NCBI RefSeq assembly: GCF_964204865.1 | Contig: NC_135253.1 | Span: 20,212,001 to 20,276,000 of the forward strand | DNA length: 64,000 nucleotides | Origin: Styela clava | Lineage: Eukaryota | Reading direction: 5' to 3' | Program-made: the position numbers | Shown: positions 9,001 through 33,000 of the stretch, piece after piece | Layout of the letters: each line of letters opens with the position of its first letter | Position numbering within the stretch: position 1 is the first letter of the stretch

Positions 9001-12000
9001 GTTGCTGTTCATCCACATGAACAATTTGTATATATTAGTCAAACTATATGCGTGTATTGGATAAATTTGCCATATAATAAGTCCCACTTTATGCATGGAA
9101 ATTACACAAACTAACACAAGGTTAAATTAAAGTCCTAACCATACAGTCTAAAATACTATGAAACAGATATTTAGTTGGCATGCAGTTAGTAAGATCAAGT
9201 TAATATGTGCATGATTTGCAGACATAACACCATATACTTTTGTTACCATAACTAAGTTTGCTCAACGTTAAAAGGCCAATGTGGACAAAACCTCTGAGAT
9301 TTTCCCCACTCATGATATTACAGTTAATTGTATTCTTTAGTGTTTTATCCCTTAACATCAAACTCAATCGTGCCACAGATATGCTGCTTGACTTCAGTGA
9401 TATTACTCAGGTGAACATTATATTTTGAAAGCTTTTTTGTTGGTTTGGAGCCTAGATGTACTCAGGGTTGAACTAACCAACAACACCACACAAGTATTGA
9501 ATGCTTAATTACAAATTACCAGTTTGAAACCTTCCTTCAATATTAACGATAGACAGAGAGAGCTACATTATCTTTTATTCTAAATAAAGTTCGCCAGTTA
9601 ATTAAAGTTATCAGCTGACTAAATTTTTTTCAGCAATTGGCAATGCATAAATAACTAAGAATGTTCTCTTTCTAGGTCAATGTTTTTACTCTGGGAAAAG
9701 CCTTTCTAGTACTGGCCAAAGAGCTTCATATACACCTACCTGTACTGGGTAAGTTTCGTTTGTGATTAAATACTAGGAGTATTATTAATTGAATAAAGTG
9801 GAGCAAGGTGGCGTGAACACTAAGTTTTTTATTCAATTGCACATCACTGCCTAAATTAACTGAGACCAGGTGGTATATTACACTCAAAATGTCGTTTGCG
9901 CACTTCAGAGCAGTGTCTTAACCTAGAAATACAAGCTCGTGTTTTCTGTTTTTCTAGCGACCACCCTGTATCAGGACAATGTAATTGCTTTTAAATTAGG
10001 ACTAGCTTTTTTCTATAAGTATCTTCATTTAATTACTAAGACCCATCCATACTTTGACAAAATAGAGCCATTGGTTTAGGAATGTATATTTTATTTAAAT
10101 AGGAAACACTGACAAACACTAAAACATTTCAGACACACACTGAATAATAGTAAAACTTGGCAAAAGCAGGCAAAGCACCATAAGTAATGAAAAATTAGGT
10201 TGTTGAATAGCAAATATGAATAAATTCGGTTTCAAACAGTACTATTATAATCAAATATTTGGGGGTAATGGGCAATACAGGGATGTGCGACCTTTAATAC
10301 TGGAGGGCCTGATACAAATACCTGGGCCGCACCTTTATTTAACATAGGCTTTAATTTTACGTTATTATTTACGTTAATTTTATGTTATTATTTACGTTAT
10401 TAATCTTATAACATGCGCTGTTCGCGTCGAACAAGCTAGCTATTAGGGAATTGCAACGTCATTGGTATGGATAATAAATTGGGACCTAGGTATAGGTTCG
10501 CAACGCAAAAAGGGGTTGGAATTAATAAACTCGTGTCGCGACTCGCGGGCAGCACTTTGCCAAAGATCAATATCAATTTAAGAAAATTCGATTTTTATAT
10601 GTATGCAAAAAAGATGATGCTGAAATTATTCGGAACAGTGTATGAATAAATTAAACATTTGCTGTGTTCGCAATTCAAGATTCAAAGGTATTTTAACTAA
10701 GCACCAGACATTATCGAGAAAAAAAAAAAATATTTTAGGATATTTTCATAGCACCAAAGGAATACATAATATAACCCTTTTTGTATGGGGATGTTGGAAA
10801 AAGTATTGATGTCATTATTATTTAAAATAAGATTACAGCAATATATGGTTCAAATTAAAATACAAATAAGGGCACTCCAGAAGTGTGCGTACCAGTATAT
10901 GGAGGTAACTAATTTTGTTGCCTACTTTACATCAAGTTGTGTAAATGGACGGAATATTCGGCTATTCACAGACAGTCCGAACTCGTAATAGAACTAAAAT
11001 AAAGAAAATCGCAATAAAATTATGGCTTAACCCTAACCTGGTACACACACTACGGAAGTTACCCAAATATGTATTTGAAAACTGGCAGACAGCTTAGCCG
11101 AATAAGAACTGTCGTGCTATGCTATACGTACGAGGTCATAAATAGGAAGAAGGTAAGATGTTAGTCACTTGCAACTTATTCAGCGTTATTTTCGTTAAAT
11201 ATCTTTAGCTTTTTTGGCATGATCGCATTTGCAAGTATTGTTAAGATGCTCCTCTGTAAAATATAAGCTCTGGAATCTGTCCTCCTTGCACTCCAGTTCC
11301 TGTTAAAGAGAAGATTTGGTGAGTACCAAATACCGGTAGGCGGTTGGTTAAATAAGTAGACCTATAAGAATTTATGGAAAGAACAAGGGGTTTTAGCAGT
11401 TTGACATGATTTGGGATAAACATCAGTATTTAGGCATAAACGATCGACTACGAAGGACAAGGGACATTTGAATGCAGCTCACTGTGATGATAGTGAAATG
11501 TTATAAGCATTTACAGATTGTGGTCTAATTTCGGTGCTCCCAAAATATGTGTACCAAGATGGCGCACAACCTAAACATATAGTATGTTTACCAGGTTAGG
11601 TTTATCAGGTTGTGCGCCATCTTGGAGCGCCCTAATTCCGAGTATATCTAGATATTTTCAACACACTATGTACCAGCAGTATATAAGAATGGACCACTGT
11701 TTAAGCAATTATTTGCAATTAGAAATTATGGGCTGAACCAGTTTTTATTTTGAAGGTATAGTTGTTTATTCAAACTTGTTATTACTTATCGATTTTAATC
11801 GGTAAGTATGTTGATAGGTATTTGTCTGTTTGTCTGTCTGTCTGTTAGATGCACGTGCGATTTTGCATGTGCATTCATCATATGTCGGACCAGAAGCCTA
11901 TTGATTTTGGATGAATTATGTCGTATAATTATTATTAATTAATTAGTGATGGGCCACTATGGAGTAAGAGCGATGTTTAGGGGGATCCCCTAACTTTCGA

Positions 12001-30000: not shown

Positions 30001-33000
30001 AAGTTGAAGTTATAGATAGTTATGAACCACAAGGTTCAAATGTCAAAGTTGAAAGTTCACATGAAAATGAGGAAGTTGATAATTTACCCAATAATGATGA
30101 TGACCAGCAATCTATGAAATCAGATTCAGCTCTTCTATCTCCAGAAGCATTGAATGCTCCTTTAGCTGTTTCAGGGGCATTTTTGACTGATTTAACTGGT
30201 GGGGACTGACACAAGAATCATCATACTGTTCTTGATAATTTTTGAAATGCCCGTTATGGTGAATTCTGATTATCCGGTCCTACCAAACATTTGTTTAAAA
30301 TCCGAAAATGTTTCAGACATCCAAAATTACCAATTCAAATAATTTTGAAAAGGCTTTTATGGCAACTCATGTGATCAGCCTGATTTGTAATACATGGCCT
30401 TAAAAAGCTGTTGAGTAAGCCAGGATCCATACACAGTACTGTGGAAAATTTTGTTTGTGAAGTCAGATGGACAATTTTTCAAAAGTGTATTTAATTGGAG
30501 GAATCCGTTTACCTCCATAATTAAACACTTGGGTTTTATGTTTTTTATTTTTGAACATCTGTTGGCTAATAAGAGTAAAAATACTTTTATCTGATATTTC
30601 TGTTTGTTAATATTTTGGCTAATACTGTACTATGCGGTAATAGACTCAAAACCGATCAGAACAAGTTGAACAACCATTGGTGGTCCAGAAGTGAATGTAC
30701 AAAGTGACTGAAAACTATGGGCATATTCATTCATTCATTCATGGGTATATCCACTGGGCTAACACAGACAGTTCTCGAACTCGTAATGAAACTAAAATAA
30801 GGAAAATCGGAGTAAAATTATGGCCTAACCCTCACCTGGTACACATACTGTGGGAATACTTTTTCAATATTAGAATGGTAACCTCGGTGTAGAAATTATC
30901 ACGAACACTCAGTCATTTTAATTTGATTATAAATTCATTTTTGCCATTTTCTGAAGTTCCAAGTAGAGTTCCATATAATATTTCTAAAAAAGCAAATTGA
31001 AATGAAACATTCTGAGTGTCGGGCTGTTTCACTTTATAATTCCACAAGAAGCAAATTCATCCGTGCTATTTTGAATTGTATCTAACTCAGAGAAAGGTGA
31101 GACTTTAAAAGTGAAAAGCCACAACGTCAGAAGGTTTTTAAAATCTTCATCAAAGCAAAAGGTTTTGCCCACACAGGGGTTTTAATTAAAATCTATTTTT
31201 TGATCTATTAAATTCCCATTGACTACAAATAATTCCTAATTTCTTTAGTTCTATGAGACAATTATTTTCTCATGAACCAGGTATTTTGTTTCCATTGTTT
31301 GATAACAATGAATCCATTATTTGATTGTTGTAATTCAATCTTTCTTTGTTTACAATATCAACAAAATCCAAACACTTTCATTCATTCAGGATTAGCGGTA
31401 CTCCTGTGTGTGTACCAGGTTAGGGTTAGGCCATAATTTTATTCCGATTTCTTATTTAGTTCTTCAACGAGTTTGGTGACTGTCTGTGTTAGCCAATTGA
31501 ATATCCCCCCTGCCCTTAGATTTCAGTCCATTTATACAACTTGATGTAGAATAGGCGAACAAAATTAGTTACCTCCATATTGTTACACATACTTCTGAAG
31601 CGCCAGATCGGATGGTCAATCTTATTTTTTATGACACTTCTCCGCATCCTTTCGCCGGGGTTCATATGTTATAATTCATAATAACTGCGGAAGCAATAGC
31701 ATAGCATTTAAAGTGCTGTTCAAAGTAGTGTGCCACCACCTCACTCTGGCTCAATTGAGCATGCCAAACTGGAAACATGACAATCCCTTCATAACCTGAA
31801 AGTTCCCTGTTTATAAATGCCAGATTGCACGGAACCTTGCTCAGAGTAGAGATGCCTTGAAATTTTGTTAGAATTATATATTTTAGGACTCCATACTTTT
31901 TATTAAAGCCTTTTACTCTTTGATTCAAATTTGCACATTTTTAGAACTTTGCCTTAAAAGATTAATGATACTTTTGCAGAATATGTCTGCTATTTCACTG
32001 TGAATCTTTTCTATTTTATTGATTTATCATAATCAAATACAGAAAGCAAAAATCATTGCAATTCGTGTAATGTTTGTCATTGCGTGTTTGAAGTTTACCA
32101 TGTTTAAAACGTCAGGATGTTTGATATTGCACCAGGATATTAATATTTTAAATAAGCTTTGAGATGTATCATAGTTTTGTCAAATGAATCCTGTACACAC
32201 ATCAAGCTATTATATTTAAACGGAGTTGAAACATTCTAGAATAATCCATTTTTGTAAATTTCTTAATCGCTCTCTTGTCGCTGCTCGATGACTGGTCTTG
32301 GTGTCTCGTGCCTCCCTTCATCCTGATGTTCCATATTACTTTTTGTAATAGTACTATAAGCACTATTATAGTGAGGTAGTAATATTTCTCAATATTTCTG
32401 GTTTGAAGATTGTGTTTTAGGAGTGTTTTGGTACACTTTTCGGGAGTTTGTTAGATTAGTTATTATAATTTTTCATCGTTTTTAAAGTCAAATATTTTTC
32501 ATTTCCAGATCCATGCATGTACATCACACGTTTCGCTCATCGAATGGATTTCGGGGATAAAACAAATGAAGTCGGTGTGGCTGCTATGAGACTAGTATCT
32601 CGAATGAAGCGTGACTGGATACACACTGGTCGAAGACCTTCAGGTCTATGTGGCGCCGCACTACTGGTTGCAGCAAGATTACATGGTTATTCTTGTACGC
32701 TGAAAGATGTTGTTAGAGTAGTGAGAATTGGACATGACACAATACGTAAAAGGTTATTCTTGTTTCTACAGATTTGTTTCTATCATTGTGATAAGCCCAT
32801 GCAGTAAATAGTGTTTTAATCAGGCAGGGACATAGCCAGAAAATTTTCCAAAGGGGGGATTCTAAGATTTCTAATTTCCAGTTTAGACCGCAACAGGTAG
32901 TAGGTCCGGCCGAAAACCTGGATTTCAAGAGTCTTTCGGGTTTAAAAAGCATTTCAAGTTACAAAAAATTGCATGTTATCATACAGAAAAGAAATTTTTT

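What the first reader, a model, noticed from the sequence alone, without database searches (positions are those of the whole stretch)
9749..32508. One BRF1 intron hosts three complete protein-coding genes in both orientations
Seen: BRF1 exon 5 (ending ...LPVL) joins exon 6 (DPCMYITRF) across 22,760 nt, while the other BRF1 coding introns are under 1.5 kb. This intron holds BTBD3/6 (-), MGME1 (-) and an unknown gene (+). MGME1 and the unknown gene diverge from a shared ~5.6-kb region. Inference: transcription of the Pol III initiation factor must cross three transcription units, which could couple their expression through interference or premature polyadenylation.
Basis: partly seen in the sequence, partly recalled or inferred. 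Interest (0 to 1): 0.65.

Follow-up and report, generated by a model that had tools for sequence, protein, structure and literature searches.

The report
Three genes inside a BRF1 intron
In the sea squirt Styela clava one 22.8-kb intron of the BRF1 gene really does contain three other intact genes, an ordinary kind of gene nesting, and one of the three sits in the matching BRF1 intron in humans too.

Summary
The window is Styela clava (a tunicate), not human. BRF1 has 15 coding exons (6524-41392, +). Exon 5 ends at 9748 and exon 6 starts at 32509, so intron 5 is 22,760 nt; the other 13 BRF1 introns are 265-1442 nt. Inside intron 5 lie three intact genes. They are a 10-exon BTBD3/6-like gene (-, 18498-11241), a single-exon MGME1-like nuclease (-, 20216-19260), and the 5-exon LOC120326344 (+, 25890-30209). 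LOC120326344 is a mostly disordered protein of no known family. The MGME1 and LOC start codons are 5,673 nt apart. New here: a human variant annotation printed in a paper places BTBD6 coding sequence, on the opposite strand, in the BRF1 intron after c.544. By residue numbering this is the same phase-1 position, inside the same Asp codon, as S. clava c.535. The BTBD part of the nest is therefore probably older than the tunicate-vertebrate split. Verdict: a real but ordinary host/nested gene cluster with one anciently conserved member. Modest interest.

The parts
6524..9748 (+). BRF1 coding exons 1-5 (6524-6704, 7086-7160, 8603-8776, 9379-9410, 9676-9748). They encode the Zn ribbon, the first TFIIB/cyclin repeat and the first residues of the second repeat.
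   Evidence: Exon table against P0003. Pfam Zn_Ribbon_TF E 2.8e-10 and TFIIB E 1.2e-17 on the ORFs.
9749..32508 (+). BRF1 intron 5, 22,760 nt, phase 1. Donor GTAAGT, acceptor pyrimidine tract plus CAG. This is the host intron.
   Evidence: 55% of it (12,535 nt) is covered by the CDS spans of the three nested genes.
11241..18498 (-). BTBD3/6-like gene, 10 coding exons (18498-18398, 17649-17483, 17130-16983, 16675-16474, 16143-15898, 15083-14965, 13913-13792, 13264-13123, 12226-12075, 11299-11241). 485 aa plus stop.
   Evidence: Maps to P0128 (BTB/POZ domain-containing protein 3-like, Styela clava), all junctions GT-AG. BTB, BACK and PHR domains found.
19260..20216 (-). MGME1-like PD-(D/E)XK nuclease. 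Single coding exon, 318 aa from the first ATG, stop at 19260-19262. An AATAAA lies on the - strand at 19253-19248.
   Evidence: Matches solved MGME1 chains at E 1e-39 over ORF residues 125-334, with the Asp and Asp-Trp-Lys positions conserved. Poly(A) hexamer.
20217..25889 (.). 5,673-nt spacer from which MGME1 (-) and LOC120326344 (+) diverge. AT-rich, no Pfam-matching ORF of 50 aa or more, no tRNA or Rfam match. It holds one copy of the dispersed repeat (24388-24565).
25890..30209 (+). LOC120326344, 5 coding exons (25890-26046, 26703-26848, 27669-27892, 28844-28999, 29558-30209). 444 aa, same strand as BRF1.
   Evidence: 100% identical to P0125 (uncharacterized protein LOC120326344, Styela clava). 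All junctions GT-AG with consistent phases. No Pfam family.
32509..41392 (+). BRF1 coding exons 6-15. They encode the second TFIIB/cyclin repeat, the BRF1 TBP-binding domain and the acidic tail. Stop at 41390-41392.
   Evidence: Pfam TFIIB E 1.6e-20 (exon 6 covers profile positions 6-90 of 92) and BRF1 domain. P0003 as a whole.

Best explanation
This is a genuine host/nested gene cluster in the tunicate Styela clava. BRF1 intron 5 is long because it carries three separate, intact protein-coding genes. Shown: the exon maps, the intactness of all four genes, and the position of the intron at the start of BRF1's second cyclin repeat. Also shown: human BTBD6 coding sequence lies antisense in a BRF1 intron. 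Inferred from residue numbering: the human intron is at the same codon and phase. Hence an antisense BTBD3/6-type gene was probably already in this intron in the common ancestor of tunicates and vertebrates. Inferred mechanism: each nested gene is transcribed from its own promoter and ends at its own poly(A) site. RNA polymerase II making BRF1 mRNA reads through all about 23 kb, and the whole stretch is removed as one intron. The two antisense genes expose no sense-strand processing signals of their own to the host transcript. The sense gene (LOC120326344) must be read through. The nest most likely persists passively: the nested genes cannot be separated from BRF1 without breaks inside an intron of a gene that is essential by established knowledge (recalled, not tested here). 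No regulatory coupling needs to be assumed.
For: Organism and host gene: the exon-6 peptide is 100% identical to S. clava P0003. P0003 maps to 15 GT-AG exons. The junction motif is uninterrupted in 4 of 4 tunicate BRF1 proteins. Nested genes are intact and match database proteins or solved relatives. Human: PMC12052365 (passage) prints one variant annotated both as BTBD6 c.642C>T (synonymous) and as BRF1 ENST00000547530 c.544+2810G>A (intron variant). The complementary alleles show opposite strands. Numbering: the S. clava intron follows c.535, the first base of the Asp179 codon. Six of 6 frog BRF1 proteins have that Asp at residue 182, whose first base is nt 544, and have R223, S226, T259 and P292. 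Human BRF1 has Arg223, Ser226, Thr259 and Pro292 (PMC4315290, passage). S. clava has D179, R220, T256 and P289, a constant offset of 3. Weaker support: BRF1 and BTBD6 proteins of a frog and a sawfish come from contigs of identical length (148,771,451 and 149,968,914). [quoted passage not shown]
Against: No RNA evidence was available. The exon 5-6 junction, the promoters and the 3' ends of the nested genes are all inferred. Position 182 of the human Asp was inferred from four other residues and from frog orthologues, not read from a human sequence. Only two lineages (one tunicate, human) were compared, so independent insertion into the same intron is not formally excluded. Nothing shows whether MGME1 and LOC120326344 are old or recent arrivals. 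In human one allele raises expression of both BTBD6 and BRF1 in pancreas (PMC8435735, passage). A tandem repeat there is associated with methylation and expression of both genes (bioRxiv 10.1101/2020.12.16.423078, figure-legend passage). Some shared regulation therefore exists at the human locus, which a purely passive reading does not predict. The window's translation differs from P0003 and P0128 at a few residues, so it is another haplotype or assembly than the annotated one. The assembly itself could not be checked.
Confidence: 0.65

Rival explanations
1. Functional coupling. BRF1 read-through transcription and transcription of the nested genes affect each other. This could be by polymerase collision with the two antisense genes. 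It could also be by premature cleavage and polyadenylation or competing splice sites at the sense gene. Pol III factor supply and the three nested genes would then be co-tuned.
For: The sense gene offers four strong acceptors and its own 3' end to the host transcript. The 2,299 nt between the LOC stop and the intron end hold no AATAAA on the + strand, only four ATTAAA, while the whole intron holds 39 AATAAA. This would fit a weak site that lets BRF1 read through, but it was noticed after the fact. Interference at single nested loci is reported (PMC13309782, PMC5174743 and PMC3192792, abstracts in the listing). In human one allele raises both BTBD6 and BRF1 expression (PMC8435735, passage).
Against: No expression data for S. 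clava were available. For most mouse and human host/nested pairs there is no positive or negative expression relationship, whatever the orientation (PMC11694760, passage). The human eQTL shows co-variation in the same direction, not interference.
Confidence: 0.15
2. Cis-regulatory constraint (genomic regulatory block). The BRF1 intron carries enhancers of the developmental gene BTBD3/6, and BRF1 is a bystander host. Selection on those enhancers, not mere inertia, keeps the pair together.
For: Irimia et al. 2012 attribute many conserved microsyntenic pairs to this. They find bystander genes with more and longer introns (PMC3514665, passages). Vertebrate BTBD6 is cited for a role in neuronal development (reference title only, seen). 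About 45% of the intron is not covered by nested CDS spans.
Against: No conserved non-coding elements could be looked for, because no eukaryote genome collection was on hand. The BRF1-BTBD pair is not named in the main text of that paper, and its pair lists are in supplements that were closed. Much of the non-coding part consists of dispersed repeats and AT-rich sequence.
Confidence: 0.15
3. LOC120326344 has no promoter of its own. It is made from the BRF1 primary transcript by spliced-leader trans-splicing at an acceptor just upstream of its ATG, as in tunicate operons. A related reading is that its first exon doubles as an alternative first exon of a short BRF1 isoform.
For: It lies on the same strand as BRF1. 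AG acceptor candidates sit 17 and 51 nt upstream of the ATG (25871-72, 25837-38). Tunicates use operons and trans-splicing widely (PMC4122922, passages). The BRF1 exon 5 and LOC exon 1 donors are both phase 1, so either could join the BRF1 exon 6 or LOC exon 2 acceptor in frame. In human, five BRF1 transcripts start inside the equivalent intron (upstream_gene_variant annotations).
Against: Phase agreement has a one-in-three chance. A 5.7-kb upstream spacer leaves ample room for a promoter. No RNA data were available. The database protein P0125 and two transcript-sized relatives begin at the same Met.
Confidence: 0.08
4. Assembly artefact: unrelated sequence was joined into the BRF1 intron, or the two halves of BRF1 are not really adjacent.
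For: Reads could not be inspected. A dispersed repeat of about 200 nt occurs at seven or more places in the intron, the kind of sequence that can cause mis-joins.
Against: There is no N in the window. BRF1 exons are collinear and complete. All three inserted genes are intact. A BTBD gene lies in the same intron in human. The database protein P0003 spans the junction.
Confidence: 0.03

Closest known systems
Human BRF1/BTBD6 host/nested pair (14q32.33)
   Same: A BTB-BACK-PHR gene of the BTBD3/6 type lies on the opposite strand inside a BRF1 intron. The intron follows the first base of the Asp codon of the conserved Asp-Pro-Cys motif at the start of the second cyclin repeat: human c.544, S. clava c.535.
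   Different: The S. clava intron also holds MGME1 and LOC120326344. In human, several BRF1 transcripts start inside this intron near BTBD6, which has not been examined in S. clava. The human side rests on a printed variant annotation and on residue numbering. No human sequence was fetched or compared.
Mammalian host/nested gene pairs in general (for example Mcph1/Angpt2, H13/Mcts2)
   Same: A complete gene sits inside a long intron of another gene, in either orientation. This is a common arrangement (PMC11694760, passages; PMC13309782, abstract in the listing).
   Different: Here three genes share one intron in a compact genome whose other introns are under 1.5 kb. One pair is kept over a far greater distance than the mouse-human comparison, in which only 25-31% of pairs are kept.
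Tunicate operons resolved by spliced-leader trans-splicing
   Same: MGME1 and BTBD3-like are tandem on one strand. LOC120326344 is on the strand of its host. Tunicates have many operons (PMC4122922, passages).
   Different: The gap from the MGME1 stop to the BTBD ATG is 761 nt, and an AATAAA follows the MGME1 stop directly. Operon spacers in Ciona are much shorter as I recall, which I did not check. Trans-splicing could not be tested.
Conserved ancestral microsyntenic pairs (Irimia et al. 2012)
   Same: Two unrelated genes are kept together over very long times. Tunicates keep few such pairs, 54 in Ciona (PMC4122922, passage).
   Different: Whether BRF1-BTBD6 is on that list is unknown. The main text does not name it and the supplements were closed.

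Membership tests
Host/nested (intronic) protein-coding gene pair | The whole coding region of the nested gene lies within one intron of the host | tested here: met
   CDS spans 11241-18498, 19260-20216 and 25890-30209 all lie within 9749-32508. UTR ends are unknown.
Host/nested (intronic) protein-coding gene pair | The host exons on either side of the intron encode one continuous protein | tested here: met
   P0003 and 3 of 3 other tunicate orthologues carry the uninterrupted junction motif. The phase-1 codon reads Asp.
Host/nested (intronic) protein-coding gene pair | The junction is seen in RNA, and the nested genes have their own transcription start and 3' end | not testable with these tools
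   No transcript data were available. Only hexamers and candidate acceptors were noted.
BRF1 (TFIIIB B-related factor 1) | N-terminal Zn ribbon, two TFIIB/cyclin repeats, and a C-terminal Brf1 TBP-binding domain | tested here: met
   Pfam on window ORFs and on P0003: TFIIB 4.3e-47 in 2 stretches, BRF1 9.2e-24, Zn_Ribbon_TF 6.6e-09. Yeast Brf1 chains match at E 6.6e-71.
BTBD3/BTBD6 | BTB + BACK + PHR domain order, with closest named relatives being BTBD3/6 | tested here: met
   P0128: PHR 1.8e-43, BTB 2.1e-23, BACK 5.2e-08. 67 proteins at E<=0.001 among 714 candidates. The specifically named ones are BTBD6 types, plus two called BTBD3-like. No tree against BTBD1/2 was made.
MGME1 (mitochondrial genome maintenance exonuclease 1) | Similarity to the solved MGME1 nuclease core, with the acidic and Asp-x-Lys residues of the PD-(D/E)XK site kept (motif name recalled) | tested here: met
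   4 distinct MGME1 chain sequences match at E 1e-39 to 1.4e-38 over ORF residues 125-334. The Asp and Asp-Trp-Lys positions align.
MGME1 (mitochondrial genome maintenance exonuclease 1) | Pfam PDDEXK_1 at its gathering score | tested here: not met
   19.3 bits against a cut-off of 22, E 0.0012. No family at E<=1e-4 for the protein read from its ATG. The general model is weak for this family; the match to solved MGME1 decides.
Tunicate operon | Same-strand genes with a very short spacer (criterion recalled) and a trans-spliced downstream gene | tested here: not met
   The spacer is 761 nt, with an AATAAA after the MGME1 stop. Trans-splicing is not testable here.
EF-hand proteins related to LOC120326344 | C-terminal EF-hand pairs | tested here: not met
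   8 of 24 distant relatives scanned carry EF hands. P0125 and its two close relatives have no Pfam family. tblastn with the 8 found no EF-hand coding remnant in the window.
Conserved ancestral microsyntenic pair | Linkage kept in several major animal lineages | tested here: inconclusive
   Shown for S. clava and, from print, for human. Same-length contigs in one frog and one sawfish. No genome collection of eukaryotes was on hand.

The most novel reading that the evidence does not exclude
The nest is a regulatory unit more than 500 million years old, not a passive relic. An antisense BTBD3/6 gene has been kept from tunicates to humans in the phase-1 intron at the start of BRF1's second cyclin repeat. 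On this reading it is kept because transcription of the nested gene(s), and of promoters inside this intron, tunes how much full-length BRF1 is made relative to N-terminally short forms. That would tie Pol III output to differentiation. A second part: MGME1 was already in the ancestral nest. As I recall (not checked), human BTBD3 and MGME1 share chromosome arm 20p, while BRF1 with BTBD6 sits on 14q. This is what two rounds of genome duplication followed by reciprocal loss would leave.
Probability: 0.08. Interest if true: 0.65.

Novelty: new member of a known kind. Interest (0 to 1): 0.35.

Why it matters
Gene nesting is common, so the locus does not change how nested genes are understood. Its value is as a clean case. 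In a compact genome with introns of about 0.3-1.4 kb, a single intron of an essential housekeeping gene carries three genes. One host/nested pair appears to be kept at the same codon from sea squirt to human, although tunicates have lost most ancestral gene order. That makes it a good locus for asking whether deep conservation of nesting reflects selection or simply the difficulty of removing a gene from an essential gene's intron. Selection could act through shared regulation, interference or internal promoters. Ascidian embryos are easy to manipulate, so the question can be tested.

Tried and rejected
I did not repeat it, so no S. clava database record for this gene was seen.
2. The ESM Atlas look-alikes for P0125 and for the distant relative P0203 gave only weak or generic EF-hand rows.
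3. The search of solved structures for P0125 found nothing (E 0.9). For P0203 it found only calmodulin-type EF hands. For P0003 it found yeast Brf1 and archaeal TFB but no human BRF1 chain, so human numbering had to be inferred from papers.
4. The AlphaFold2 model of P0125 built on alignment A1 had mean pLDDT 48.1 and pTM 0.18. That is too poor for a fold search, and none was run.
5. tRNA and Rfam scans found nothing inside the intron. The only match is a tRNA-Cys at 3399-3470.
6. Literature: 20 papers hold both BRF1 and BTBD6 (18 listed) and 11 papers matched a microsynteny/nesting query. I read passages of five papers that hold both names; none of those passages, and none of the listed titles, discusses the nest. 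Three papers hold MGME1 and BTBD3, all gene lists.
9. The promoter/terminator scanner is for bacterial signals and was not used.

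
Full report
Organism and rules. The window has no N and a G+C content of 0.31-0.40. The peptide of the claimed exon 6 is 100% identical over its whole length to a database protein named transcription factor IIIB 90 kDa subunit-like of Styela clava (P0003, 679 aa). The next best matches are other ascidians at 81-86% identity (1550 proteins at E<=0.001 among 2073 candidates, best 120 listed). The window is therefore tunicate, not human. No human sequence was fetched, saved or compared. Full-length comparisons used the database proteins that the single-exon searches returned.

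The observation. By eye, exon 5 ends at 9748 before GTAAGT. A pyrimidine tract plus CAG ends at 32508, and the split codon reads Asp within [13 protein letters not shown]. P0003 contains that motif uninterrupted, as do the Ciona, Phallusia and Clavelina orthologues. tblastn placed P0003 on the window in 15 pieces, none inside the intron. A junction search gave 15 GT-AG coding exons summing to 2040 nt. The introns are 381, 1442, 602, 265, 22760, 798, 776, 665, 278, 953, 1045, 1094, 856 and 914 nt. Against the 26 other introns of the three multi-exon genes (265-1442 nt, median 775.5), intron 5 is 15.8 times the largest. Exon 6 covers positions 6-90 of the 92-position TFIIB repeat profile. The intron therefore sits at the very start of the second cyclin repeat, and the two halves of BRF1 cannot function apart. 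The window's translation differs from P0003 at a few residues, for example at positions 371, 425, 429 and 545, and from the BTBD protein at position 45. The window is thus another haplotype or assembly than the one the database proteins came from.

What is inside. All 372 stop-to-stop ORFs of 50 aa or more in the window were scanned against Pfam.
- BTBD3/6-like gene. On the minus strand of the intron, PHR, BACK and BTB pieces line up. A search with the BACK exon returned BTB/POZ domain-containing protein 3-like of S. clava (P0128, 485 aa). The specifically named relatives are otherwise BTBD6 types, plus one lamprey BTBD3-like (67 at E<=0.001 among 714 candidates). P0128 maps to 10 GT-AG exons from 18498 to 11241 and has BTB, BACK and PHR domains.
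- MGME1-like gene. The 340-codon ORF 19263-20282 (-) has its first ATG at 20216. It matches four distinct solved MGME1 chain sequences at about E 1e-39 over its residues 125-334, with the active-site Asp and Asp-Trp-Lys aligned. It is a single coding exon followed at once by AATAAA. The general Pfam nuclease model stays just under its cut-off.
- The unknown plus-strand gene. Reading the DNA gave five exons with consistent phases and a length of 444 codons. A search with exon 5 alone returned an uncharacterized S. clava protein of exactly 444 aa, LOC120326344 (P0125), identical in all five exons. That search found 3 proteins at E<=0.001 among 1955 candidates.
- Layout. The three CDS spans cover 12,535 nt, 55% of the intron. 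The gaps are 1492, 761, 5673 and 2299 nt. The 5.6-kb divergent spacer is therefore confirmed.

The unknown gene. P0125 and its two close relatives have no Pfam family. These relatives come from unnamed transcript-sized contigs; P0126 is 75% identical to P0125 overall. On the window, the relatives' exon 1-4 pieces are 62-88% identical and exon 5 is 52-60% identical. A full scan of 1.84 billion representatives found 40 proteins at E<=0.001. Of the 24 I scanned, 8 are longer proteins with C-terminal EF-hand pairs that match only residues about 10-300 of P0125. No EF-hand remnant lies in the window. Alignment A1 shows short conserved blocks around residues 116-136 and 197-252. The AlphaFold2 model is poor (pLDDT 48.1) apart from a long helix at 196-231 and a short one at 246-258. 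It is best described as a largely disordered protein that is conserved among ascidians and related to the N-terminal part of an uncharacterised animal EF-hand family.

The human parallel. A paper on circulating RNA variants prints a human variant, chr14:105249697 C>T. It is annotated both as a BTBD6 synonymous coding change (c.642C>T) and as a BRF1 intron variant. The BRF1 annotations are c.544+2810G>A in one transcript and c.463+2810, c.199+2810 and c.104-8283 in others. The same variant is an upstream variant of five further BRF1 transcripts (PMC12052365, passages). So in human a BTBD6 coding exon lies on the opposite strand in the BRF1 intron that follows CDS nucleotide 544, and some BRF1 transcripts start inside that intron.

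In S. clava the host intron follows nucleotide 535, the first base of the Asp179 codon. Among 30 BRF1 proteins examined, the Asp-Pro-Cys motif was found in 26. The Asp is residue 179 in 4 of 4 tunicates and residue 182 (first base nt 544) in 6 of 6 frogs. It is residue 180-184 in the other 16; the motif pattern failed in 4. The frogs have R223, S226, T259 and P292. Human BRF1 has Arg223, Ser226, Thr259 and Pro292 according to the disease-mutation paper (PMC4315290, passage). S. clava has the same residues at 220, 256 and 289. Human numbering therefore equals frog numbering. The human intron after c.544 splits the same Asp codon in the same phase as S. clava intron 5. This chain is indirect, but every link is a tool result or a printed passage.

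Other papers only show the two human genes as neighbours or as sharing an eQTL and a methylation-associated repeat.

How it most likely works. Nothing in the sequence requires more than the ordinary behaviour of nested genes. That means three independent transcription units, a host polymerase that reads through them, and removal of the whole as one intron with a perfect GTAAGT donor and a strong acceptor. The two antisense genes present no sense-strand processing signals of their own. The sense gene does present them. I noted that no AATAAA occurs on the plus strand in the 2.3 kb after its stop, although 39 occur in the intron. That is suggestive of a weak site, but I noticed it after the fact. 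The BRF1 exon 5 donor and the LOC exon 1 donor are both phase 1. Chimeras in either direction would therefore be in frame, which has a one-in-three chance.

Persistence is most simply explained by the host. BRF1 is essential by established knowledge (recalled, not tested here), and a nested gene can leave only through breaks within its intron. Tunicates have otherwise lost most ancestral gene pairs, keeping 54 in Ciona (PMC4122922, passage). The rivals are interference, cis-regulatory constraint, trans-splicing from the host transcript, and mis-assembly. They are listed with what would refute each.

Novelty and verdict. Nested genes are common. [quoted passage not shown] All four genes here already have database proteins or clear relatives. 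No listed title or passage I read treats the BRF1-BTBD6 nest or its conservation (searches; passages). The pair lists of two relevant surveys are in supplements I could not open. This is a new, tidy member of a known kind, with one notable feature: the apparently orthologous host intron in tunicate and human. The locus could not be compared in other eukaryote genomes, and no RNA or read data could be consulted. The junction in RNA, the assembly and any coupling therefore remain open.

Noticed in passing
window 3399-3470 (-): A tRNA-Cys (GCA) gene, the only tRNA or Rfam match in the 64 kb. It lies about 3 kb upstream of the start codon of BRF1, the factor that recruits the polymerase transcribing tRNA genes.
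   Followed up: no
window 5352-5804 (+): A single-ORF GNAT acetyltransferase (Pfam Acetyltransf_CG, E 4.1e-24). It is on the BRF1 strand and ends about 0.7 kb before the BRF1 start codon. Possible tandem or operon-like neighbour.
   Followed up: no
window 10883-11055, 15483-15718, 17733-17924, 24388-24565, 26888-27100, 30743-30859, 31406-31609: A dispersed repeat of roughly 150-250 nt occurs in both orientations at seven or more places. All copies lie in introns or spacers inside the BRF1 intron, at 60-96% identity. Probably a short non-autonomous mobile element. A second GC-richer repeat lies at 28259-28323 and 28616-28680.
   Followed up: partly
window 30210-32508 (+): No AATAAA on the + strand in the 2,299 nt after the stop of the sense-oriented nested gene. 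There are four ATTAAA (30520, 31185, 31207, 31902). The intron as a whole has 39 AATAAA on that strand.
   Followed up: partly
window 35323, 35763, 35775, 39215 (BRF1) and 17618 (BTBD3-like): The window's translation differs from the S. clava database proteins at a few single residues. This suggests allelic or assembly differences. LOC120326344 is identical.
   Followed up: partly
window 43852-47922 (+), 51621-52340 (-), 53782-54417 (-), 55086-55769 (-), 59166-59456 (-): Downstream neighbours of BRF1: weak DCAF4-type beta-propeller matches below cut-off, a CYTH-domain ORF (E 2.4e-16), an autoantigen p27-type ORF (E 6.2e-12), a 228-aa ORF with no family, and a G-patch exon (E 2.1e-13).
   Followed up: no
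protein P0002 (Branchiostoma floridae model): An old amphioxus gene model starts its BRF1 similarity exactly at the Asp-Pro-Cys motif (its residue 15). It also has a RING/B-box/NHL protein fused into the middle of the BRF1 C-terminal part. This hints at an exon boundary at the same place and at another same-strand gene inside a later BRF1 intron there.
   Followed up: partly
window 25890-30209 and proteins P0203, P0212, P0217, P0219, P0221-P0223, P0225: The ascidian LOC120326344 proteins end without the C-terminal EF-hand pairs that their distant longer relatives carry. No remnant of that part is in the window. This is a likely domain loss in the tunicate lineage.
   Followed up: partly
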